In this document: positions 338 to 28,272 of the stretch, in pieces
Layout: each line of letters opens with the position of its first letter
How positions within the stretch are numbered: position 1 is the stretch's first letter
Source of the DNA: an uncultured Actinomycetes bacterium
GTDB lineage: Bacteria; Actinomycetota; Thermoleophilia; RBG-16-64-13
Length of the DNA stretch: 64,000 bases
Direction: 5' to 3'
Assembly (NCBI GenBank): GCA_963841735.1
Contig: CAWJDT010000004.1
Coordinates: 192,001-256,000 of the forward strand
Translations under genes and position numbers: made by a program
The notes under the pieces: generated by a model
Told to the model about the DNA's origin: nothing
The model's database searches: none
Seen by the model: only the letters and a program-made list of their open reading frames with translations

Positions 338-343
338 CAGCTC

Positions 344-492
344 GCTCGACCTTGCGCGTGATCTGGCCTCAACTTGAGCCAACACACATCGCTTGGGAGG
401 CTTGTTCACCTGAACGGCGTATATCCTTTCAGGGACGGCCACCCACCTGCTTAGGCAGGTTCAAGCGACTGTCAGACACGGCAAGGTGGAGC
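344..492 (+). ncRNA. ssrS: Probable 6S RNA
   Basis: 5' GCTCGACCTTGCGCGTG pairs with 3' CACGGCAAGGTGGAGC; inner stems TCTGGC/GTCAGA and TTGAGC/GTTCAA; central bubble; CCCACCTGC..GCAGGTTCAA signature; located directly after aspS as in many Gram-positives. Confidence 0.8.
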
Positions 493-513
493 ATTCTTCT
501 AGGAGGGAACATT

Positions 514-2883: not shown

Positions 2884-3303
2884 GTGGCGGTTTCGCATGT
2901 GAGCACTAGTCAAGACATCGTTGTACTGCACACCCCAAGGGGCGCGCAGGCTCTGCCATTGATGCGCGTGGTCATGGGAGGAGTGGCATCTCGACATGAC
3001 ATTCCTCTGGAACGGCTGGACGATCTCCAGCTGGCCGTTGAGACGCTGCTGGCAGAAGAGACGGCGGACGGTGGTGAGTTGGGCCTGATCGTATCCTGCG
3101 ATGCCGCGGCCTTGACGATAAGGCTCGAGGGTCTTGCCAACCAGGCGTTACGCACGGCCCTAGTAGCCCCTGATGCTTTTCGGCCGAGTTCGCTGTGTCG
3201 GCTGGACGTTCGTTTGTTCCTCGACGCCTTGGTAGACGGTTACCAGGTGGTCGGAGAAGCCGGCGGGGTCTTTGCGGTCGAGATGGAGAAACGGACCCGC
3301 TAG
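2884..3303 (+). CDS. RsbW-like anti-sigma factor (degenerate HATPase_c)
   Basis: LMRVVMGGVASR...LDDLQLAVE N-box, ALVD..VEMEK end; directly upstream of a SigB/F-type sigma. Confidence 0.7.
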   Translation: MAVSHVSTSQDIVVLHTPRGAQALPLMRVVMGGVASRHDIPLERLDDLQLAVETLLAEETADGGELGLIVSCDAAALTIRLEGLANQALRTALVAPDAFRPSSLCRLDVRLFLDALVDGYQVVGEAGGVFAVEMEKRTR

Positions 3304-4149
3304 ATGGGGGAAGAGGGGCGGGCAAACACTCAGAAGAGCTCCCTTGGGTCGGAGACGGCATTCGGCGAGCGTATCGAATCGGTGCCCGAAAGGGCCCTTC
3401 TCATCAGGATCAGGGACGGCGATACGGCTGCCCGCCAGGAGCTGATAACGCGTTACCTACCTTTGGTGAGAAGCATCGCTAGGCGCTTTGCGTCGCGGGG
3501 GCAGCCTGTGGAAGACCTTACTCAAGTGGGGTCCATCGGGCTTATCAAGGCGGTCGACCGCTTCGATCTTGAGAGGGGAGTGGAGTTGTCGACGTATGCC
3601 ACTCCGACCATAATGGGCGAGATCAAGCGCTACTTCCGGGACAAGGGCTGGGCCGTCAAAGTGCCCCGAGCGCTGCAGGACCTGAATGTTCGGCTCAATA
3701 AGCTCCTAGAGCAGCTCACGGTTGATCTGCAGAGATCGCCCAGTATCGCTGAACTCGCGACGGCGGCCGGGGTTAGCGAGGAGGAAGTGGTAGAGGCGAT
3801 GGAGAGCGGGCGCGCCTATAGTTCGGTCTCCATCTTCTCCGGGGGGGCAAATGAAGAAGATGACTCTTTGGAGATCCTGGATTGCCTTGGGAAGGAAGAG
3901 CCGGCATACGAGATATTCGAGCAGCGCCGGCTGCTTGCGCCGGCCATGGAGCGCTTGGACCCTCGAGAGCGTCTCATCCTTCACCTGCGCTTCTTTGAGG
4001 GCATGACGCAGACGCAGGTGGCCGCGCGCATAGGCATCTCCCAGATGCACGTGTCGCGGCTCATCCGCAAGTCTATCGAGAATCTCCGGCAGAACATATT
4101 GGAAACCGAGGTCCTGGTAGAGAGCGCCAGGGGGAGAGGTAAGGGCTAG
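3304..4149 (+). CDS. RNA polymerase sigma factor, SigB/SigF/SigG family
   Basis: EDLTQVGSIGLIKAVDRFD, YATPTIMGEIKRYFRDKGWAVKVPR, region 4 TQTQVAARIGISQMHVSRL. Confidence 0.95.
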   Translation: MGEEGRANTQKSSLGSETAFGERIESVPERALLIRIRDGDTAARQELITRYLPLVRSIARRFASRGQPVEDLTQVGSIGLIKAVDRFDLERGVELSTYATPTIMGEIKRYFRDKGWAVKVPRALQDLNVRLNKLLEQLTVDLQRSPSIAELATAAGVSEEEVVEAMESGRAYSSVSIFSGGANEEDDSLEILDCLGKEEPAYEIFEQRRLLAPAMERLDPRERLILHLRFFEGMTQTQVAARIGISQMHVSRLIRKSIENLRQNILETEVLVESARGRGKG

Positions 4150-20429: not shown

Positions 20430-20477
20430 AAGTCGGGACGGCCGGATTTGAACCGGCGACCTTCCGGCCCCCAGCCG
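20430..20477. repeat. att core, left copy (duplicated 3' half of tRNA-Pro)
   Basis: AAGTCGGGACGGCCGGATTTGAACCGGCGACCTTCCGGCCCCCAGCCG identical to 28196-28243. Confidence 0.97.
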
Positions 20478-20595: not shown

Positions 20596-20626
20596 GGACT
20601 TTTCGTGGAACATTCGTGGAACATGG
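20596..20626 (+). repeat. Probable integrase arm-type binding sites (tandem GTGGAACAT), left arm
   Basis: 29/31 identical to 28111-28141; GTGGAACATTCGTGGAACATGG is exact. Confidence 0.7.
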
Positions 20627-20759
20627 AGCCGCTCGCCTCGCTTGGCCACGTAGCCCGTGCCCGAACCCAGGGAAGCCCGATCTTGCGGGCTTGCTTTCTG
20701 GTATACCTCCGAGTATGCTTTGCAGTGTCACTTCCAGCATCACTAGAGGGGCGGCAGAC

Positions 20760-20996
20760 ATGACCGATCTTGAGAAGGTGCGCGAGAATCGACTCCGGCG
20801 CATGGCCGCTCGGCAGGGGCTCATGCTCCGCAAGTCGCGACGCCGCGATCCCTACGCGCTCGACTACGGCACGTATCAGCTCGTTGATATGTCCACCAAC
20901 ATCCTCATTCAATGGGAAGGCATCGCCTACCCCGGCTGGAGCCTTGACGAAGTCGAGGAGTGGCTAACCAGGGACCATGATGCGAGGAAAGCATGA
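20760..20996 (+). CDS. Small arginine-rich hypothetical protein of the element
   Basis: RBS GAGGGG; MTDLEKVRENRLRRMAARQGLMLRKSRRRDP...SLDEVEEWLT; ATGA-coupled to the next gene. Confidence 0.75.
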   Translation: MTDLEKVRENRLRRMAARQGLMLRKSRRRDPYALDYGTYQLVDMSTNILIQWEGIAYPGWSLDEVEEWLTRDHDARKA

Positions 20997-21417: not shown

Positions 21418-21765
21418 CTACCCGGCCGCTTCGCTTTGCCCGTGCGCCGGCGTCGGAAGAAGACGGTCGAGAAAGGCGGTCGCACCGCGATACAGCCCCA
21501 GGATCACAGGGTAGAGCTTGGCCTCCGGCGTGCGTTTGGTGCCGGATTGGCTCGGCCCGTTGTTCCAATCGACCGTGAGGCTGTGCGCGGTCATGTGCCT
21601 CTGGAGATCGTCCAGGGTCACGCCCAGGAAGGCGGCTTGCCCCAAGAGCGAGTCGAGCCCACGCAACCGCTCCGGACCAATGTCGCGGTAAATGCGGCGA
21701 AGTCGGGCCTTCTCTCGCTTGATCCGGCGAGCTTTCTGCTGGGGCTCTAAGTCGGGCGAAGTCAT
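21418..21765 (-). CDS. terS: Terminase small subunit (P27-like, cos-phage type)
   Basis: RIKREKARLRRIY...AAFLGVTLDDLQ...WNNGPSQSGTKRTPE..LY...FLDRLLP resembles recalled TerS of Gram-positive siphophages; RBS GAGGTG; follows the capsid gene. Confidence 0.7.
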   Translation of the reverse strand: MTSPDLEPQQKARRIKREKARLRRIYRDIGPERLRGLDSLLGQAAFLGVTLDDLQRHMTAHSLTVDWNNGPSQSGTKRTPEAKLYPVILGLYRGATAFLDRLLPTPAHGQSEAAG

Positions 21766-22058
21766 CGCAAATCACCTCATCTTGAGGGCCGTTGGGGCCG
21801 CTTATTCTTGACCCCCCCTATGCCGGGTTTTTTCTGCCGCGCTGAAGTTATTCTCCACTTACCGGTCTCCAGCCATGCTTCACATTTTGCATGCACGGGG
21901 GGATCACCTCTGCCAAGTTGGTGTGCAGGCCTCCCGCCGCAGAGACGAGAGGCCTGCTCTGCTGCTCTCTTTCCCTGTATCCCGCGCGCATGAATCGAAC
22001 ACGCAGGAGGCCGGCAGGGCAGCATGGCGGGAAGGATGCCCGCGACCGTTGGCACCTA

Positions 22059-23462
22059 TCAGCTAACCGCCGACGTGGCCAGGTTCAAGATCCTGAAGGC
22101 TTCGGGAACCACTACGTCGGAACCGGTCCTGAACCAGAGGAAAGCCCCGCGCTGGCCAGTGGGCCGGCGGTTCTCTCCGAAGACGTGCGGGACGATCTCG
22201 ATGGTGCTGCCGATCCGGTCCGCGATGATGAAGTTGCTCCAATCCCCATAGCAGAGAATGAGGTTGTCTTCGGTCGCGCCGGTGTCAACGTCGTCCGTGT
22301 CCGCCATGTTGGAGCATTCATGGAGCGGCCGCCTCAGCAGCTTGCCGTCGGCCAGTTCGGGGAAGACCCTCGACCCATTGTCGGTCTCAAACTGCGCGAT
22401 GCTGTTGATCGTCGGGAGACCGGCGACCCACCGCGCGTTGGGCTGGAACCGAGCGGGAAGAGCGTTCTGCACCGCGTAGACATCCGGCGTCGTGAACGTC
22501 TCGAATGTTGCCGGAGACAACTCAGAGCCGGTGCCCGCAAGAGCGGTCACAAACCCGGTCGGCTGGCCGTCGCCGCTGCCGGTTGTGAAGGCCGCTGCCT
22601 GCAACTGGTCTGCCGCGTCGACGAGCAACTTGGCGAGCTCTTCAGCAAACCGCAAGCCGTCCATCCCGATCTCAAAACTGAAGGGGACGAACGCGTCTCC
22701 GAAGTGCACCGGAACTTCGGCCTCGGCAAGCGTGGGGCTCGCGTCGGCTGCCTCGCTTCCTTCGCTCTTCCATTCCGCACTACAGCCGGCGCTGGTCACG
22801 CCTTGCCAAGTGTTCGAAGTGGTCTGGACCACTCGGGCGATTTGGCGAAGCGGATTGTTGGAACCGTCGGAGGTCAGCAAGATCGCGGGATCCAAGAACA
22901 AAGGCAGCATTTCGCCACCGTAGCCGGCCCCGGTGCTGAGAGCCGCGCGAAAGTCGCGCTTGACGGCCTGGACCTGCTGGTATGCGGCACGCTCTTCGTC
23001 GGTCCACATCATGTGGCCCTTTGAAGGGTCGGCCATCATCTTGAAGAAGGCGCTGGCGTAGGCGTCGCTCCCGGTGGCCTGCGCCCACCTGGACGCCAGG
23101 TCGCGGGATGCGTCGTCGCCGGTCGTGACGAGCCTCTCGGCCACAGCCGCCGCGGGCGCCGGCAGCAGACCGCGCTCGTGAGCCGCGTTGATGATGCGGC
23201 GCGCCGGGTCGGTATCACGGGAGCCGAAGACCGGACTGTTGCTACCGCGGGCGTCCGGCTGGGGGAACGTGCGGGCGGTGGGCTGAGGCGGGGCCTTCAG
23301 CGCGTCGGGGTCGGCCCCAAGACGGATGGCGGTGTTCCTGCGCTTGCGTTCCTCCGTGAGTGCGTCCACCTCGGTCTCCAGAGCATCGAGGTCGGCGTCG
23401 GGCTTCTTCAGCTCGGCCTTGATCTCGCTGAGCCGGGCGTCAATCTGTGCGATACGTTTCAT
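22059..23462 (-). CDS. HK97-fold major capsid protein, phiRv1/phiRv2-like
   Basis: N-terminal coiled-coil delta domain; LDPAILLTSDGSNNPLRQIARVVQTTS, GSGDGQPTGFV, YGDWSNFIIADRIG, PHVFGENRRPTGQRG, AFRILN. Confidence 0.93.
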   Translation of the reverse strand: MKRIAQIDARLSEIKAELKKPDADLDALETEVDALTEERKRRNTAIRLGADPDALKAPPQPTARTFPQPDARGSNSPVFGSRDTDPARRIINAAHERGLLPAPAAAVAERLVTTGDDASRDLASRWAQATGSDAYASAFFKMMADPSKGHMMWTDEERAAYQQVQAVKRDFRAALSTGAGYGGEMLPLFLDPAILLTSDGSNNPLRQIARVVQTTSNTWQGVTSAGCSAEWKSEGSEAADASPTLAEAEVPVHFGDAFVPFSFEIGMDGLRFAEELAKLLVDAADQLQAAAFTTGSGDGQPTGFVTALAGTGSELSPATFETFTTPDVYAVQNALPARFQPNARWVAGLPTINSIAQFETDNGSRVFPELADGKLLRRPLHECSNMADTDDVDTGATEDNLILCYGDWSNFIIADRIGSTIEIVPHVFGENRRPTGQRGAFLWFRTGSDVVVPEAFRILNLATSAVS

Positions 23463-23471
23463 GACGAAAAC

Positions 23472-23805
23472 CGCCTTTCAGGCGTAGAAAGTCAGTGTTC
23501 TTGGGGGATCATCCGGTGCCGGACGATCAGTGTCGGCGCCTCTGCGGCCCCGACAGGACCTGGCCACCTCTGCGGCGGCAGGTGCCGAGTTGTAGGACAG
23601 GCATCTCTCCGACACCAGCACCACCCGGGCTCTCTCCGACCCCGGCCGTCGCCATGCCCTCTCGGGCAGCATGGCCCCCGCCCTTCGGCGGTCGTCCGGT
23701 GTGCCATGCCGGACTGTCGGAAGCTCTTCGCTTCCAGCGAATCACCCGACCGATAGCAGCATGGCATCTCTGCGACGCCAGCCCGTCCGGGGCCTCTGCG
23801 GCACC
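23472..23805 (-). ncRNA. Putative structured leader or ncRNA: hairpin array with repeated C-GNAGA-G pentaloops
   Basis: About 12 adjacent stems; G-U wobbles resolve only on the minus strand; begins just after TATAAT and ends at the capsid RBS. Confidence 0.6.
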
Positions 23806-23808
23806 TAG

Positions 23809-23814
23809 ATTATA
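23809..23814 (-). promoter_or_regulatory. -10 element of a putative capsid-operon promoter
   Basis: Perfect TATAAT on the minus strand in GC-rich DNA; -35 is poor. Confidence 0.6.
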
Positions 23815-23849
23815 CCGCTTCCAGCGGACAGGGAATACGCTCTGAGCGT

Positions 23850-24113
23850 TCATGCGACCACCACACCCACGTCTTCGTTGCAGCCGCACTTCCGGCATAC
23901 CCACCACTCGGCCGGCAGTTTGGAAGCCGGGTTGCCCCACAGGATCGCTCCCAGGGTCGCGCCGCACTCCGGGCAGGTGAACGTTACGATCTTGCCGCCG
24001 CCGGTCTCTTGCACAGCGAAGGTGAACATGGCGCCGTGCGGTGGTACTTGGCCGCACCAGGGCTCTTGCTGCTGTGCGGGTGCACCGGTGAGGGCTTCGT
24101 GATGTAGGGTCAT
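23850..24113 (-). CDS. Small zinc-finger-like hypothetical protein
   Basis: CPECG...CRKCGC; RBS AAGGCGGTG. Confidence 0.55.
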   Translation of the reverse strand: MTLHHEALTGAPAQQQEPWCGQVPPHGAMFTFAVQETGGGKIVTFTCPECGATLGAILWGNPASKLPAEWWVCRKCGCNEDVGVVVA

Positions 24114-24137: not shown

Positions 24138-24332
24138 TCATCGCCATAGACCCGGCCGGATGAACACTGGCCTTTGCTCCCTGGCTTCCCGGGCCCGCGC
24201 TGCCTGATCCCTGGCGGCCGTCTGCGTAGTGCAGACCCCGAAGGCCACGGACCGGCCGCTGTCCCATAGGCGCCAGGTCCACAGAGGCGCGTCGGGCTTT
24301 GATCGCTCGGATTCTCGGATCTCTACCCTCAC
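24138..24332 (-). CDS. Small hypothetical protein (WxWRL motif)
   Basis: Strong RBS AAGGAGG before GTG 24332; 64 aa. Confidence 0.55.
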   Translation of the reverse strand: MRVEIRESERSKPDAPLWTWRLWDSGRSVAFGVCTTQTAARDQAARAREAREQRPVFIRPGLWR

Positions 24333-24355: not shown

Positions 24356-24456
24356 TCTTACTCTTACCTCCTATAGAGAAAGAGGAACGGTAAGATTCCG
24401 TTCCCTCTCTCTTTCTCTTACCGGTAAGATTCATCGTTCTTACCACGGTAAGATTC
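24356..24456. repeat. Iteron cluster, putative replication origin of the element
   Basis: CGGTAAGATTC x3 (24388, 24422, 24446) plus inverted TCTTAC x4 (24356, 24362, 24416, 24438); AT-enriched; at the 3' end of rep. Confidence 0.7.
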
Positions 24457-25707
24457 ATCCGCACGGCTCCACCTGCCCCGGCCCACGTTCTGAATGAGCC
24501 CCTTGTCCTTCAACTGAGTGAGGGTCTTACTCACTGTGCCAGGAGTGGTCCCGATGGCTTCGGCAAGCTCTGACGGTCCACAGGGGCCATTCTCAAGCTC
24601 GGTGAGGATCATGTCCCGGATGGCGCCGGCCTCCGTCGATACATCGTTGACGGCCGCCTCCTCTACCACCAGGGCGTCACGGTCGAAGATCATCCGCAGA
24701 CCCACGGGCTCCACGTCGCCCATGTTGGTCTTGCGCGGGAAGAGCCCGACGCGGTACACGCCCGGCCGCTCGCGCTCGGAGCGGATCTCCCAGGTGATCC
24801 GTGCGAGGTTCTCCCAGTAGATGCTCCCAATCGGCAGCCGGTGGTGGTTCTCTTCGCGCCGGTCTGCCTTCGTGGTGTGGGTCTGGATATCGACGGCGGC
24901 GCCGGTGCTCGCTGTGACCTTGCGCAGACTGCCGAAGAACTGGATGGCAAGCTCAGAGCTGGCCACGTCTCCCCCACACGCGAGGCCCGCACTGTCGATA
25001 ACGACGAACTTGATCTCATGCTTAGCGATAACCTTGGCGATCTCGGAGGCCTCGTCTGCCATCGGGCCCGTGCACCTGCGGTAGAGCGGGAAGCGGATAT
25101 CACGGGCGATATAGGTCTTCTGGAGACCAGTCGCCAGCATCGTGCAGCGCCGCGCCGCCTCTGCCTCTGTCACTTCCCAATCGAGAATGAGCGTGTTCGC
25201 CTGTTTGGTGTCCCTGGCCTGGAAAGGCAGCCCGTTCTCTATGAGGAGGGCCTTGTAGATGGAAACGAAGCTCTTGAACTGGCCACCCGGAGCGAAGCTG
25301 AGGACCGGGAGCCCGTCTAGGATCACGTTCCCCAGCATGTACTCGACATCGACACTAGTCACCGGCTGAAGGCGCCGCGTAGGCGATCCCTGCTCCTCGT
25401 GCTCCAGGATAAGCGTGCAACTGGTCTCGATTACCCGGTCCCAGTTGACGCTGTCGCGCGGGAGTCGCTCCTCTAGCGTCTGCGACAATCGGCGCCGGGT
25501 CTGGCCGGCCGCCAGATTCATGGCCTCGTGGTGAACTTTCTCGGGATCTCGGCCGGGAAGAGCGACGAAGATCTTGACGGTACCTTGCACCCGGCCGTCA
25601 GAATGGGTCCGCAGACGCCCGGCCTCAAACTCGACCATGGCATCCGGGAACGACCATCGGACGATGTACTCCCCTGGCGCCGTGGTGATGGTGGGCGTCA
25701 CATCCAT
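24418..25707 (-). CDS. Rep-like AAA ATPase/helicase (AAA_25/RepA-like) with C-terminal winged HTH
   Basis: Variant Walker A FAPGGQFKS, LILDWE, Walker B VVIDS, HTTK, GSIYWEN.AR; C-terminal PSELAEAIG..PGTVSKTLTQLKDKGLI....RGRW. Confidence 0.75.
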   Translation of the reverse strand: MDVTPTITTAPGEYIVRWSFPDAMVEFEAGRLRTHSDGRVQGTVKIFVALPGRDPEKVHHEAMNLAAGQTRRRLSQTLEERLPRDSVNWDRVIETSCTLILEHEEQGSPTRRLQPVTSVDVEYMLGNVILDGLPVLSFAPGGQFKSFVSIYKALLIENGLPFQARDTKQANTLILDWEVTEAEAARRCTMLATGLQKTYIARDIRFPLYRRCTGPMADEASEIAKVIAKHEIKFVVIDSAGLACGGDVASSELAIQFFGSLRKVTASTGAAVDIQTHTTKADRREENHHRLPIGSIYWENLARITWEIRSERERPGVYRVGLFPRKTNMGDVEPVGLRMIFDRDALVVEEAAVNDVSTEAGAIRDMILTELENGPCGPSELAEAIGTTPGTVSKTLTQLKDKGLIQNVGRGRWSRADESYRGKNDESYR

Positions 25708-26359: not shown

Positions 26360-26911
26360 ATGACGGATACAGAGAGGGCAAAACCGCGGGAGTTGGTCGG
26401 TCGCAACCTTCGGAGGATTCGCCAGGATCGCGGGCTTTCTCAACGTCGGCTGGTCGAGCGAATGAGGGGGCTCCGGTTTTCGTGGCACCAGACAACCGTT
26501 CAGGGAGTTGAGACGGGCACGAGACCCGTCTCGATCGATGAACTAGTAGCTCTCGCCATCTGCCTGGACACTGACATTGCATCGTTGCTCGATCCCGTTG
26601 GCGCCGGTCTCCCGAGCCTTCCGATGGAGCAGGGCACACTTGCGGAGGCGGGGACTGTAGACGTCGGTCTTCCGTGGGGCTTGTGGGGCCGTTTCTTTCG
26701 CAACCTCATTCCCGTGTCGCAGGCGCAAGGTAGCAGCCCGCGGTTCGTCCAGACCATTCCAGACTGGCGCGATGGGGAGCCGGTGGGCGGTCTACAGCAG
26801 GAATTCGCCATCCCTGCCGATGAGGACGCGCTCCACACCAAGGTGAAAGAACTCGAAACCCTGGTCGAACAATTGAAGGCGGCGTTGCCGGCACAAGGGA
26901 GGAAGTCGTGA
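26360..26911 (+). CDS. XRE-family HTH repressor
   Basis: VGRNLRRIRQDRGLSQRRL...WHQTTVQGVETGTRPVSIDELVALA; RBS GGAGGAG. Confidence 0.9.
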   Translation: MTDTERAKPRELVGRNLRRIRQDRGLSQRRLVERMRGLRFSWHQTTVQGVETGTRPVSIDELVALAICLDTDIASLLDPVGAGLPSLPMEQGTLAEAGTVDVGLPWGLWGRFFRNLIPVSQAQGSSPRFVQTIPDWRDGEPVGGLQQEFAIPADEDALHTKVKELETLVEQLKAALPAQGRKS

Positions 26912-28107
26912 GAGGCTCCGTTCGTCGTTGGCGCAATGGTTGGCAGTGGCGCGTGCGGACGCCGGAAGGCCGGTGGATCTCCAAGTCCGGTTATCGCCTT
27001 GAGCGCGAGGCTCAGGACGCGCTCACCAAGGAACTAGCGAAGATGGGCGAAGGCCGGTTCGTGGAGCCCGACCGGATCACGGTCGGGGCGTACCTGGAAG
27101 ATGTGTGGCTCCCGGCCGTGAAAAGCTCTGTCGGGCCTAGTCAGTACACGAGCTATCAGACCATTCTAGAGCGGCATATCAAGAAGCACATAGGCGACGT
27201 GAAACTGCAGAAGCTCACGGAGCCCCACGTCATCCGCATGTACCGCGAACTCGAAAGGACAGGCCATCGCTACTCTACCGACGATGCCCCTCGCGGTCTG
27301 GCTCCAAAGTCCGTGCGTCACGTTCACGCCATGTTGCACCGGGCTTTGAATGACGCCGTAGAGTGGCGCTACGTGCCCCGCAACGTTGCCGAGAGCAAGA
27401 AGACCAAGCCGCCCCGGCCCAAACGTCAAGCCGACATGAAGGTCTGGACTGCGGAAGAGCTGCAGCGCTTCCTTGCCGCGGTGCAATCGGACCGGCTGTT
27501 CCCGTTCTGGCGCTTCCTCGCACTTACCGGCGTTCGCCGTGGCGAGGGTCTCGCGCTCCAATGGTCCGACGTGGATCTTCGCGCCGGCGTCGCGTCGATC
27601 GCTCGGGCTCGCACCATTCACGGCACGTCGGCGCCGAAGACGGAACGTAGTCGCCGCTCCCTTGACCTAGACCCGCAGACCGTCGCCGTGCTCAAGTCGT
27701 GGCGCAAGCGGCAGCTAGAGGAACGGCTCCGCTGGGGCGAGCTTTGGAGTGATACCGGCCTTGTGTTCACCCGCGAGAACGGCAACGGCTACCACCCGGA
27801 CGGGATCACCGGGATCTTTGAACGGCTGCAGCGTCAGCACAACGACGCGAAGAAGAAGGAAGCCGAAGAGCGGAAGAAGGCCGGCGACGCCACAGCGCAA
27901 CCGGAGGGCCTTCTCCCCCGAATCCGGCTGCATGACCTTCGCCACACTCACGCGACGCTGCTACTTGCGAGCGGCGTCAATGCCAAGATCGTCTCAGAGC
28001 GTCTCGGCCATGCCTCCGTGGCGTTCACCTTGACCGTGTACGCGCACGTTTTGCCCGGCCAACAGAAGGAAGCGATCGGGCGCCTGGCGGCCCTGGTCGA
28101 TGGCTAG
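26908..28107 (+). CDS. int: Tyrosine integrase
   Basis: N-terminal arm-binding domain; TGVRRGE, PKT, HDLRHT, ERLGH, VYAH catalytic set intact; adjacent to att/tRNA. Confidence 0.97.
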   Translation: MRGSVRRWRNGWQWRVRTPEGRWISKSGYRLEREAQDALTKELAKMGEGRFVEPDRITVGAYLEDVWLPAVKSSVGPSQYTSYQTILERHIKKHIGDVKLQKLTEPHVIRMYRELERTGHRYSTDDAPRGLAPKSVRHVHAMLHRALNDAVEWRYVPRNVAESKKTKPPRPKRQADMKVWTAEELQRFLAAVQSDRLFPFWRFLALTGVRRGEGLALQWSDVDLRAGVASIARARTIHGTSAPKTERSRRSLDLDPQTVAVLKSWRKRQLEERLRWGELWSDTGLVFTRENGNGYHPDGITGIFERLQRQHNDAKKKEAEERKKAGDATAQPEGLLPRIRLHDLRHTHATLLLASGVNAKIVSERLGHASVAFTLTVYAHVLPGQQKEAIGRLAALVDG

Positions 28108-28110
28108 TCC

Positions 28111-28141
28111 GGAGTTTTGGTGGAACATTCGTGGAACATGG
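28111..28141 (+). repeat. Probable integrase arm-type binding sites, right arm
   Basis: Direct repeat of 20596-20626. Confidence 0.7.
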
Positions 28142-28195: not shown

Positions 28196-28243
28196 AAGTC
28201 GGGACGGCCGGATTTGAACCGGCGACCTTCCGGCCCCCAGCCG
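28196..28243. repeat. att core, right copy (within tRNA-Pro)
   Basis: Identical to 20430-20477. Confidence 0.97.
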
Positions 28244-28272
28244 GATGCGCTACCAAACTACGCCACGTCCCG
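28199..28272 (-). tRNA. tRNA-Pro (anticodon GGG), CCA not encoded
   Basis: CGGGACG acceptor stem, D loop AGTTTGGTA, TCCGG-CTGGGGG-CCGGA anticodon arm, GCCGG-TTCAAAT-CCGGC T arm. Confidence 0.97.

What the first reader, a model, noticed from the sequence alone, without database searches (positions are those of the whole stretch)
23463..23814. Undescribed ~340-nt hairpin-array RNA with seven C-GNAGA-G pentaloops leading into the satellite capsid gene
Seen (minus strand, starting right after a perfect TATAAT at 23814-23809): GCC-GCAGA-GGC (23789-805), TGGCGTC-GCAGA-GATGCCA (23762-780), GGAAGC-GAAGA-GCTTCC (23719-735), a GTCCGG stem (23694-714), CCGCC-GAAG-GGCGG (23678-691), TGCCC-GAGA-GGGCA (23651-675), CCGGGgTC-GGAGA-GAgCCCGG (23625-645), GGTGTC-GGAGA-GATGCC (23600-616), CCGCC-GCAGA-GGTGG (23558-583), TGTCGGgGCC-GCAGA-GGCgCCGACA (23531-555), a stem at 23507-528, and a last stem CGCCT/AGGCG covering the capsid RBS. 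Stems differ in sequence but loop and closing pair are conserved, and wobbles resolve only on this strand, which points to selection on single-stranded structure. Established: GNRNA pentaloops such as GAAGA are the lambda boxB fold bound by Arg-rich peptides, and repeated-loop RNAs (CsrB/RsmZ) act as protein sponges. Inference: a multivalent protein-binding RNA that may sense or sequester a helper-phage protein, gate capsid translation or scaffold assembly. It sits where phiRv elements encode the prohead protease. I recognise no named family for it.
Basis: partly seen in the sequence, partly recalled or inferred. Interest (0 to 1): 0.88.

Follow-up and report, generated by a model that had tools for sequence, protein, structure and literature searches.

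The report
Hairpin-array leader before a satellite capsid gene
The untranslated stretch in front of the capsid gene of a small phage-satellite-like island holds a real, non-random row of RNA hairpins that all show the same five-base loop; it probably serves as a set of docking sites for a still unknown regulator of capsid production.

Summary
On the minus strand at 23531-23807 there are seven hairpins with a C-GNAGA-G loop. About 0.14 would be expected from the window's motif density. All seven have 5-6 of 6 flanking pairs, against 8.8% of 2692 motif copies genome-wide. Across the seven, plus three copies in a metagenomic relative (L087), the stems co-vary while six loop positions stay invariant.

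The array lies in a 387-nt non-coding leader. Upstream is a promoter-like block conserved in four related elements. Downstream is a hairpin that sequesters the ribosome-binding site just before the capsid ATG. The host element is a 7.8-kb island integrated at tRNA-Pro, carrying integrase, repressor, RepA-like and capsid genes.

No Rfam family matches, and the array is single-copy in its genome. It was not found in 60 family genomes, 400 class genomes or 166 capsid loci, apart from L087. The closest capsid relative (L005) lacks it, so it is accessory. Two other relatives carry analogous arrays with different conserved loops.

Best reading (about 0.45): a cis-acting 5' leader RNA whose GNRNA-type loops bind a trans-acting protein that gates capsid expression. 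Transcription, the binding partner and the effect on expression are all untested. I rate it a new variant of a known kind, of moderate interest.

The parts
20430..20477 (.). attL: 48-nt perfect direct repeat of the 3' part of tRNA-Pro; left end of the 7.8-kb island
   Evidence: family D1, 100% identity with 28196-28243
28196..28272 (-). attR inside tRNA-Pro(ggg); right end of the island
26908..28107 (+). tyrosine integrase
   Evidence: PF00589, E 3.4e-19; phrog_1, E 5e-75
24418..25707 (-). RepA-like AAA_25 ATPase with a C-terminal winged helix
   Evidence: 81% identical to the L087 homologue
23850..24113 (-). 87-aa zinc-ribbon protein directly upstream of the leader; a candidate regulator, untested
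   Evidence: only sub-threshold generic zinc-ribbon hits; PF10122 Com not matched
23809..23845 (-). promoter-like block (AGCGT..GTCCGC..GGTATAAT) with -10 TATAAT at 23814-23809; conserved in the window, L087, L005 and L085/L086
   Evidence: no -35 consensus was found by the scan
23816..23826 (-). near-palindrome CGCTGGAAGCG, copy 1, abutting the -10; a possible DNA operator
   Evidence: 2 copies in the window, 0.11 expected
23787..23807 (-). H1: C-GCAGA-G hairpin at the predicted 5' end of the transcript
   Evidence: 24.6 bits
23761..23781 (-). H2: TGGCGTC-GCAGA-GATGCCA
   Evidence: 27.3 bits
23717..23737 (-). H3: GGAAGC-GAAGA-GCTTCC. Its 5' half overlaps copy 2 of CGCTGGAAGCG (23729-23739) and competes with an alternative hairpin
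23694..23714 (-). H4: GTCCGG stem with a 9-nt loop (non-motif)
23678..23691 (-). H5: CCGCC-GAAG-GGCGG (non-motif; not scored by model R1)
23655..23668 (-). H6: TGCCC-GAGA-GGGCA (GNRA tetraloop closed by C-G; not scored by R1)
23625..23645 (-). H7: CCGGGGTC-GGAGA-GAGCCCGG
   Evidence: 25.4 bits
23598..23618 (-). H8: GGTGTC-GGAGA-GATGCC (paralogue of H2)
   Evidence: 25.0 bits
23558..23583 (-). H9: GCCGCC-GCAGA-GGTGGC with an outer extension
   Evidence: 25.1 bits; closing-pair P 0.97
23531..23555 (-). H10: TGTCGGGGCC-GCAGA-GGCGCCGACA
   Evidence: 27.0 bits; closing-pair P 1.00
23507..23528 (-). H11: 9-bp hairpin with loop GCAC (CCGGCACCGG core, resembling the L029 hairpins)
23472..23484 (-). 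H12: CGCCT-GAA-AGGCG followed by GTTTTCGTCA. It sequesters the GAAAGG ribosome-binding site and is flagged as terminator-like, ending 9 nt before the ATG
   Evidence: ribosome-binding-site bases mostly paired
22059..23462 (-). HK97-type major capsid protein, 467 aa, with a long N-terminal coiled-coil region
   Evidence: PF05065, E 5e-37

Best explanation
The 387-nt gap between the zinc-ribbon gene and the capsid gene is the 5' leader of the capsid mRNA of a PICI-like satellite island. Transcription probably starts about 7 nt after the conserved -10, near 23802.

As it is made, the leader folds into a string of local hairpins. Seven of them display the same C-G-closed pentaloop, GNAGA. This is a GNRNA-type loop, that is, a GNRA-like fold with the fourth base, here always G, flipped out.

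These loops are multivalent docking sites for a trans-acting RNA-binding protein. That protein could be encoded by a helper phage, by the host, or by the island itself.

Occupancy of the array decides whether the last hairpin, which buries the ribosome-binding site and resembles a weak terminator, blocks capsid production. The block could act on translation, as phage Mu Com does on mom mRNA, or on transcription read-through, as lambda N does at boxB.

Shown: the hairpins, the loop conservation together with stem covariation, the non-coding nature, the position between a conserved promoter-like block and a sequestered ribosome-binding site, and variation in copy number between relatives.

Inferred: that the region is transcribed, that RNA rather than DNA is the active form, that a protein binds it, and in which direction expression is regulated.
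For: 1. Seven motif hairpins lie within 270 nt, against about 0.14 expected. All 7 have 5 or more of 6 flank pairs, against 8.8% of genomic motif copies.
2. Loop positions C8 G9 A11 G12 A13 G14 are invariant in all 10 units, while stem columns vary with compensating changes (arm permutation 0 of 100000). A conserved centre with variable, self-complementary arms is the reverse of a duplex DNA operator. It fits a loop presented on a single strand.
3. The sense strand folds better: z -4.61 against -2.07.
4. The region is non-coding.
5. The flanks are homologous in the window, L087 and L005 on both sides: the promoter-like block and the ribosome-binding-site hairpin. The middle differs only in hairpin number: 7, 3 and 0.
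6. The third L087 hairpin keeps the stem of window H3 but has loop GCAGA instead of GAAGA. The variable loop position changes while the rest is held.
7. The same architecture recurs with other loops in two further capsid leaders. L085/L086 has two hairpins with different stems and an identical 12-nt apex. L029 has three hairpins sharing GGCAC.
8. The ribosome-binding site is mostly paired in the ensemble, and the last hairpin is flagged as terminator-like.
9. GNRNA loops closed by C-G are an established fold (PMC9830547, passages).
Against: - No expression data exist; no sequencing run was listed.
- The closest capsid relative, L005, lacks the array, so capsid expression in this family does not need it.
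- Only two elements carry this loop. No candidate partner co-varies with it. The zinc-ribbon protein is 60% identical in hairpin-less L005 but only 41% identical in hairpin-bearing L087.
- Global thermodynamic folding supports only 3 of the 7 motif hairpins with a closing-pair probability of 0.58 or more.
- The leaders of L087 and L029 are not more stable than shuffles (z +1.19 and -0.54).
- No sigma-70-type -35 element was found.
- The wobble-based strand asymmetry is small (66 against 62 pairs).
- The units are paralogues, so the covariation counts are not independent events.
Confidence: 0.45

Rival explanations
1. Ligand-free structural leader. The hairpins arose by local duplication of a palindromic unit and are kept only as generic structure. 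They might protect the 5' end against RNase J or E, shield a long untranslated leader from Rho, or insulate the late promoter from upstream read-through. No specific binding partner is involved.
For: Copy number varies freely among relatives: 0, 3 and 7. H2 and H8, and window H3 and the third L087 hairpin, are obvious paralogues. H1 sits exactly at the predicted 5' end. The leader RNA is G-rich, which is poor for Rho loading (GC skew of -0.09 to -0.18 on the plus strand).
Against: Structure alone does not explain six invariant loop and closing positions across 10 units whose stems have diverged. In particular, the G at loop position 4 is invariant, although that base is extruded and unconstrained in the GNRNA fold. 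Two other lineages also hold a loop constant while the stems change.
Confidence: 0.25
2. DNA-level element. The repeated CGNAGAG units, possibly extruded as hairpins on single-stranded DNA, are recognition sites for packaging (a pac or cos-binding region for a small terminase) or for priming. Alternatively the region is an operator field for a repressor.
For: The island has no large terminase or portal gene, and none was found in the 89.7%-complete genome. It must therefore carry a packaging signal somewhere, and non-coding DNA ahead of the head genes is a usual place. The near-palindrome CGCTGGAAGCG occurs twice, at the -10 and inside H3, and looks like a duplex operator. All repeats lie on one strand.
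Against: Loop-to-loop spacings of 26, 44, 92, 27, 37 and 28 nt are not in helical phase. Duplex-binding sites do not need flanking arms that co-vary. The likely replication origin lies elsewhere: iterons at 24422-24459 next to repA. Relatives with the same capsid family lack the motif.
Confidence: 0.12
3. Trans-acting decoy or sponge RNA. The leader, or fragments processed from it, titrates a helper-phage or host RNA-binding protein or nuclease. Candidates would be an arginine-rich antiterminator, or a nuclease that recognises GAGA-type loops. The effect would be to interfere with the helper or to blunt a defence system, in the manner of CsrB/RsmZ or the repeat-mimicking RNAs that phages use against CRISPR.
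For: The array is multivalent, with 7-9 similar loops. Copy number expanded relative to L087. The hairpins are closely paired, 26-28 nt apart, which would suit a dimeric binder.
Against: No terminator separates the array from the capsid gene, so there is no sign of a discrete small RNA. No CRISPR array was found in the genome by a crude script. Stems differ between units, unlike mimics of a single repeat. No partner is known.
Confidence: 0.1
4. Antisense or kissing-loop control. The identical 7-nt loop faces pair with complementary loops of an antisense transcript from the plus strand, or with a helper RNA, as in ColE1 RNA I/II or the P4 CI RNA system.
For: Repeated loops of one sequence could nucleate loop-loop contacts. 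Satellite P4 uses RNA-RNA immunity (recalled, not checked here).
Against: No promoter-like site was found on the plus strand reading into the array. The complement, CTCTNCG on the sense strand, is not enriched anywhere else in the island. A C-G-closed GNRNA loop is compact and poorly suited to kissing.
Confidence: 0.05
5. The region encodes a protein or leader peptide. Candidates are the 91-aa ORF at 23492-23767 and the 64-aa ORF at 23478-23672, which ends inside the ribosome-binding-site hairpin.
For: Open frames exist. The 64-aa ORF stops 15 nt before the capsid ATG in the same frame, so translational coupling is conceivable.
Against: GC by codon position is flat in all frames, unlike real genes here. 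The motif copies fall in all three phases. L087 has a leader about 200 nt shorter with no equivalent ORF. The predicted products are rich in Cys, Arg and Gly and of low complexity.
Confidence: 0.02

Closest known systems
Lambda-type nut sites: boxB hairpin bound by the arginine-rich motif of N (processive antitermination)
   Same: Both are short stems capped by a GNRNA pentaloop. The H3 loop, GAAGA, is the loop I recall for lambda nutL boxB (recalled, not checked). Both lie in a leader downstream of a promoter and upstream of a terminator-like hairpin. Loops are lineage-specific among relatives.
   Different: Here the closing pair is C-G, loop position 4 is invariant G and position 2 is variable. 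There are 7 copies instead of 1. No boxA-like element is conserved among the window, L087 and L005. No N-like protein has been identified. No Rfam or sequence match exists. The host is an actinobacterium.
Phage Mu Com / mom mRNA translational activation
   Same: In both, a small zinc-ribbon protein is encoded immediately upstream of a structured leader whose last hairpin buries the ribosome-binding site of the next gene. The mechanism of Com is recalled.
   Different: The 87-aa protein does not match PF10122, whereas Mu Com, run as a control, does at E 2.7e-9. BLASTP finds no alignment between the two. Mu has one binding site, not an array. Hairpin-less L005 has the more similar zinc-ribbon protein.
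ANTAR-regulated leaders (pairs of hairpins with conserved loop positions)
   Same: Both have tandem hairpins whose loops, not stems, are conserved. Both have closely spaced pairs (26-28 nt here), lie in a 5' leader, and overlap a terminator or ribosome-binding site.
   Different: As I recall, ANTAR loops are hexaloops with A at position 1 and G at position 4; these are C-G-closed pentaloops. Nothing in Rfam matched the leader at E up to 10. No ANTAR protein was looked for.
CsrB/RsmZ-type sponge RNAs and type III antitoxin (ToxI) repeat arrays
   Same: Many repeated short protein-binding units lie on one RNA.
   Different: Those are discrete small RNAs with their own terminators. Here no terminator separates the array from the capsid gene; the only terminator-like hairpin abuts the capsid ATG. 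The loops lack the GGA motif in 8 of 10 units. ToxI repeats are near-identical direct repeats upstream of a toxin gene, not diverged hairpins upstream of a capsid gene.
Candidate PICI-like satellites of Actinobacteria (integrase plus major capsid protein at a tRNA gene; the phiRv1/phiRv2 type)
   Same: The host island fits this description: a tyrosine integrase at tRNA-Pro, a repressor, a RepA-like protein, an HK97-type capsid gene, 7.8 kb. The class is described in PMC10654092 and PMC10085698 (passages read).
   Different: It has no prohead protease, which 7 of 9 tested relatives carry directly upstream of the capsid gene. The papers, as far as I read them, do not describe leader hairpin arrays. 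Their supplements were not seen.

Membership tests
Any Rfam 15 family | Covariance-model match at or near the gathering score | tested here: not met
   Nothing matched in 23463-23849 at E up to 10. The whole window at gathering scores gave only tRNA-Pro and 6S RNA. L087, L085 and L005 gave nothing relevant at E up to 1.
GNRNA pentaloop hairpin (structural motif class) | Five-base loop G-N-R-N-A on a Watson-Crick stem | tested here: met
   All 10 units read G-N-A-G-A closed by C-G. The class definition comes from PMC9830547 (passages). The three-dimensional fold itself is not testable here.
Lambda-type nut site (boxA + boxB + N) | A conserved boxA element next to the hairpin | tested here: not met
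   No shared linear element besides the promoter block and the ribosome-binding-site region appears in the alignment of the window, L087 and L005.
Lambda-type nut site (boxA + boxB + N) | A cognate N-like arginine-rich antiterminator protein | tested here: inconclusive
   Arg-rich N-termini exist in the 115-aa (21418-21765) and 126-aa ORFs. The 115-aa protein has no homologue in L087 at E 1e-4. A helper-encoded protein cannot be examined.
Mu Com family (PF10122) as the upstream regulator | A match to the Zn_ribbon_Com profile | tested here: not met
   The window's 87-aa protein gives only sub-threshold generic zinc-ribbon hits. The Mu Com control matches at E 2.7e-9. BLASTP finds no alignment.
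CRISPR repeat mimic (RNA anti-CRISPR) or CRISPR array | Near-identical repeats matching a host CRISPR repeat | tested here: not met
   Stems differ between units. A crude 18-mer periodicity script found no CRISPR-like array in the 89.7%-complete genome.
REP/BIME-like dispersed palindromes or a MITE | Many copies dispersed in the same genome | tested here: not met
   The leader is single-copy by BLAST. The array is the only cluster of three or more in the genome. Hits in 60 family genomes are scattered singletons.
Type III toxin-antitoxin antitoxin RNA | A near-identical tandem direct-repeat array followed by a terminator and an endoribonuclease toxin gene | tested here: not met
   The units are diverged hairpins with irregular spacing. 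The downstream gene is PF05065 capsid.
PICI-like actinobacterial satellite (host element) | An island of about 8-15 kb with an integrase at a tRNA gene, flanking direct repeats, a replication gene and a capsid gene, but no full virion module | tested here: met
   No portal or TerL was found in the genome. Mobilisation by a helper is not testable here.

The most novel reading that the evidence does not exclude
The array is a natural multi-copy set of boxB-like GNRNA hairpins that works as a helper-phage sensor. An arginine-rich or zinc-ribbon RNA-binding regulator, made only during helper infection, loads cooperatively onto the 7 loops. Loading switches on satellite capsid synthesis by read-through or by opening the hairpin over the ribosome-binding site. 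At the same time the array soaks up that regulator and so starves the helper's own late expression.

The different conserved loops in the L085/L086 and L029 leaders would then be the same device retuned to other helpers. This would make a fast-evolving RNA 'lock' family in satellite capsid leaders.
Probability: 0.15. Interest if true: 0.8.

Novelty: new variant of a known kind. Interest (0 to 1): 0.55.

Why it matters
How phage satellites time their own structural genes to a helper infection is known for only a few model systems, all of which use proteins acting on DNA. A leader RNA with repeated loops that differ between lineages would be an RNA-level control point, and possibly a determinant of helper specificity, in the large and almost unstudied group of actinobacterial capsid-encoding satellites.

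It would also add a new cis-regulatory RNA motif to a phylum that lacks the classical Hfq and CsrA systems. The motif is compact enough to test directly with reporters and pull-downs.

If the array proves to be only a structural leader, it remains a clean natural example of hairpin-repeat expansion with selection on the loops.

Tried and rejected
1. Rfam: no family matched.

2. Looking for the array elsewhere:
- Capsid-guided loci: 80 genome, 80 metagenome and 6 viral loci. Only L087 has the array.
- RepA-guided viral scan: none found.
- BLAST of the leader against phage records: no match.
- BLAST against 400 sampled genomes of the class: only 20-60-nt chance matches.
- Covariance model R1 on 61 family genomes, with stricter filters: scattered singletons only.

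3. Pattern scans:
After hairpin filtering, the hits were coding repeats (the L204 type lies in a 327-aa ORF), tandem repeats (L188, L253, L241, L346, L383, L336), or palindromic iterons with conserved stems and variable centres (L361). All were rejected as analogues.
- A class-level scan for three motif copies was noise: the reversed-pattern controls were about as frequent.

4. A first generic loop-repeat script failed on its own positive control and was dropped. Looser versions found L029 and L085/L086.

5. Sequencing runs: none was listed and no RNA holder was listed.

6. Prophage helper in the same genome: PF04860 and PF03354 were not found. The genome is 89.7% complete.

7. CRISPR mimicry: no array was found by a crude script.

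8. Coding: rejected.

9. Considered from memory and set aside:
- A sarcin-ricin-loop mimic: only H6 has the C-GAGA-G loop.
- Mimicry of the ribosome-binding (Shine-Dalgarno) sequence: only 2 of 7 loops contain GGAG.
- An anticodon-loop mimic: position 33 would be G.
- An RNA-primed origin: PMC7157519 passages describe no hairpin arrays, and the island has its own RepA and iterons.

10. Literature. Searches found no description of such an array. I read the whole text of PMC12822802 (EPIP satellites of Mycolicibacterium), which describes a different kind of element. I read passages only of PMC10085698, PMC10654092, PMC9830547 and PMC7157519. Supplements are closed and may list elements of this family.

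Full report
**Context.** The window is 61.6% G+C and lies on contig C4 of a 2.8-Mb, 89.7%-complete genome. The nearest capsid relative comes from a record titled uncultured Gaiellales.

A 48-nt perfect direct repeat at 20430-20477 and 28196-28243 matches the 3' part of tRNA-Pro(ggg) at 28198-28272. It delimits a 7.8-kb island. The island carries these genes:
- a tyrosine integrase at 26908-28107 (+);
- an XRE-type HTH protein at 26360-26911 (+);
- an excisionase-like 75-aa ORF;
- a 103-aa ORF;
- a RepA-like AAA_25 protein with a winged helix at 24418-25707 (-);
- a conserved ORF of about 64 aa;
- an 87-aa zinc-ribbon protein at 23850-24113 (-);
- a 387-nt gap;
- an HK97-type major capsid protein at 22059-23462 (-; PF05065, E 5e-37);
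- a 115-aa phrog_1066 protein.

No portal or large-terminase profile matches anywhere in the genome. This is the 'integrase plus capsid at a tRNA gene' type of candidate PICI-like satellite described for Mycobacterium (PMC10654092 and PMC10085698, passages read). The capsid family is widespread in Actinomycetota: 657 proteins at E up to 1e-20 among 8000 scored candidates. The capsid is about 36% identical to that of mycobacteriophage Brujita and close relatives.

CGNAGAG occurs seven times on that strand between 23540 and 23800. The window as a whole has 69 copies on both strands, with 52.7 expected. Its density therefore predicts about 0.14 copies for such a stretch.

All seven copies have 5 or 6 pairs in the six positions flanking the loop. 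Among 2692 copies of the motif in the genome, only 236 (8.8%) do. A regex scan of both strands of the genome found 255 motif hairpins, and only one cluster of three or more, which is this array. The leader is single-copy by BLAST.

A covariance model built from ten units (R1) scores the seven window members at 24.6-27.3 bits. The next best of 32 hits in the 64-kb window scores 14.6 bits. The GAAG and GAGA hairpins (H5, H6) are not picked up, so I count seven members plus five other hairpins.

**Selection on structure.** In the 21-column alignment of the seven window units and the three L087 units, six columns are invariant: the closing C and G, and loop positions G1, A3, G4 and A5.

For the 8-pair stem:
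- 82.5% of cells pair, against 65.2% in 500 column shuffles; none of the shuffles reaches the observed value.
- Seven of the 8 pairs show changes on both sides.
- The covariation score is 0.531 against 0.201 in shuffles.
- Sliding the 3' partners by 1-3 columns drops pairing to 33-47%.
- Pairing each 5' arm with another unit's 3' arm never reached the observed total in 100000 permutations.

The units were chosen by loop motif, not by stem, so this test is not circular. They are paralogues, however, so the counts overstate the number of independent events.

The pattern here is a conserved centre with variable, self-complementary arms. A duplex operator shows the reverse: the palindromic iterons of viral contig L361 keep their stems and vary their centre. 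The pattern in the window points to a loop presented on a single strand.

**Which strand, and is it coding?** The sense strand of the capsid gene folds to -179 kcal/mol (z -4.61; 0 of 100 shuffles fold as well). The other strand folds to -155.9 kcal/mol (z -2.07). The wobble argument is weak: 66 of 80 positions pair on the sense strand and 62 of 80 on the other.

Coding is excluded. GC by codon position is flat at 0.65-0.70 in all frames and in the three candidate ORFs, whereas the island's genes show about 0.63/0.50/0.80. The seven motif copies fall in all three phases (by hand). L087 has a leader about 200 nt shorter.

**Caveats on folding.** In a global ensemble of a 400-nt model transcript, the closing-pair probabilities of the seven units are 0.05, 0.58, 0.06, 0.22, 0.03, 0.97 and 1.00. 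With pairing limited to 45 nt, five of seven form. H3 and H8 lose to alternative hairpins. The L087 and L029 leaders are not more stable than shuffles (z +1.19 and -0.54). Co-transcriptional folding may favour the local hairpins, but that is an assumption.

**Relatives.** Of 166 capsid-guided loci, only L087 has the same hairpins. L087 is a 6587-nt sediment-metagenome contig with capsid 57%, RepA 81% and Xis-like protein 75% identical to the window. It has three CGCAGAG loops at 2763, 2795 and 2820, between a homologous promoter-like block and the capsid ATG at 2872. Its third hairpin has the stem of window H3 but loop GCAGA instead of GAAGA. Two of its stems carry G-A mismatches next to the closing pair.

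L005 is the closest capsid relative (68% identity) and has the same zinc-ribbon gene upstream. It has the same promoter-like block and a similar hairpin over the ribosome-binding site, but a 150-nt leader without the motif. The block AGCGT..GTCCGC..GGTAnAnT is shared by the window, L087, L005 and L085/L086, and by no other locus.

The array is therefore an accessory insert of variable copy number between conserved flanks.

**A recurring architecture.** Two further capsid leaders show the same design with other loops.
- L085 and L086 have identical leaders from two metagenomes. They carry two hairpins with different stems (GCGAG/CTCGC and GCCAG/CTGGC) around the same 12-nt apex.
- L029 comes from a Mycobacterium kyorinense record. 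It has three hairpins with different stems sharing GGCAC, or CCG-GCA-CGG in the predicted fold, ending about 35 nt before the capsid ATG. The window's H11 has a similar CCGGCACCGG core.

So 4 distinct elements among the 166 loci screened carry two or more hairpins with one conserved loop and differing stems in this position. Many loci are truncated upstream, and my screens demand exact loop repeats, so this is a lower bound.

**Mechanism.** The -10 TATAAT at 23814-23809 places the likely start near 23802, so H1 would sit at the very 5' end. No -35 consensus is present. That fits an activator-dependent late promoter but is also a weakness of the promoter call.

The last hairpin (23472-23484) contains the GAAAGG ribosome-binding site. 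It is followed by GTTTTCGTCA and then the ATG, and the scan flags it as terminator-like. The ribosome-binding-site bases are mostly paired in the ensemble. A comparable hairpin precedes the ATG in L087 and L005.

GNAGA satisfies the GNRNA rule. In that fold the fourth base is extruded (PMC9830547, passages). Its invariance as G in 10 of 10 units therefore suggests direct recognition rather than a folding constraint.

The best-supported model is a cis-regulatory leader. Its repeated loops bind a trans-acting protein that decides whether the terminal hairpin blocks capsid expression. Known systems that work this way are lambda N with boxB (antitermination) and Mu Com with mom mRNA (a zinc-finger protein that opens a translation-inhibiting hairpin). 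Both mechanisms are recalled, not checked here.

The 87-aa zinc-ribbon protein just upstream is an obvious candidate. It does not match the Com profile, which the Mu control matches at E 2.7e-9. Its similarity pattern also runs against co-variation with the hairpins: it is 60% identical to hairpin-less L005 and 41% identical to L087. A helper- or host-encoded partner therefore seems at least as likely.

I put this model at about 0.45. The rivals are a ligand-free structural leader (0.25), a DNA-level packaging or operator element (0.12), a trans-acting sponge (0.10), antisense or kissing control (0.05) and coding (0.02).

**A DNA-level feature inside the leader.** The near-palindrome CGCTGGAAGCG occurs twice in the window, with 0.11 expected. 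One copy abuts the -10 (23816-23826). The other forms the 5' half of H3 (23729-23739). L087 has it only at its third hairpin. It looks like a pair of duplex operators, and it creates the alternative hairpin that competes with H3. It may couple repressor binding to leader folding, but this is unexplained.

**Novelty and verdict.** The host island is of a known kind. The hairpin array matches no curated RNA family. In my three literature searches and the papers I read, I found no description of it. Supplements were not seen. In kind it resembles known leader devices built from loop-specific hairpins, so I call it a new variant of a known kind. The feature is real and statistically solid. It is rare and accessory, and its function is unproven. 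Interest: 0.55.

Noticed in passing
L029:3660-3735 (+): In a Mycobacterium kyorinense record, the leader of a related capsid gene (ATG at 3767) has three hairpins with different stems and the same GGCAC loop (CCG-GCA-CGG in the predicted fold). This is the same architecture as the finding, with a different loop.
   Followed up: partly
L085:2733-2815 and L086:1561-1643 (+): Two metagenome contigs share a 100% identical capsid leader. It has two hairpins with different stems around the same 12-nt apex, CCGGTCCGACCA, plus two partial AGCCGGAC repeats.
   Followed up: partly
window 23816-23826 and 23729-23739 (-): The near-palindrome CGCTGGAAGCG occurs twice (0.11 expected): once abutting the -10 and once inside hairpin H3. 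This may be a pair of duplex operators; the binding protein is unknown.
   Followed up: partly
window 24380-24460: This looks like the replication origin of the island. CGGTAAGATTCATC occurs twice, 24 nt apart, at the 3' end of repA, next to an 8-bp palindrome flagged as terminator-like on both strands. L005 has similar CTTACCG/GGTAAG repeats at 3300-3390.
   Followed up: no
window 20596-20626 and 28111-28141: A 31-nt repeat (94% identity) containing GTGGAACAT twice lies just inside both ends of the island. These are probably arm-type integrase binding sites.
   Followed up: no
window 21980-22073 (-): ARAGORN calls a 94-nt 'tRNA-Gly' overlapping the capsid stop codon. Rfam's tRNA model does not support it at the gathering score, so it is probably a false call. 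A 290-nt apparently non-coding gap follows the capsid gene.
   Followed up: partly
window 24138-24332 (-): A roughly 64-aa ORF (starting VRVEIRES...) is the only small protein, besides the capsid, with homologues in all four elements that share the promoter-like block (window, L087, L005, L085/L086). It has no Pfam or PHROG match and is a candidate late regulator.
   Followed up: no
window 341-496 (+): A 6S RNA gene (RF00013, 62.2 bits, above the gathering score).
   Followed up: no
window 21418-21765 (-) and 20616-20996 (+): Two small ORFs have strongly arginine-rich N-terminal stretches. The first matches phrog_1066 (function unknown) and has a homologue in L005 but not in L087.
   Followed up: partly
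L361:9395-9545 (+): A viral contig has five copies of the 23-bp palindrome GTTCGGGCC-N5-GGCCCGAAC, with conserved arms and a variable centre, in both orientations. They look like duplex iterons, and their conservation pattern is the reverse of the finding's.
   Followed up: no
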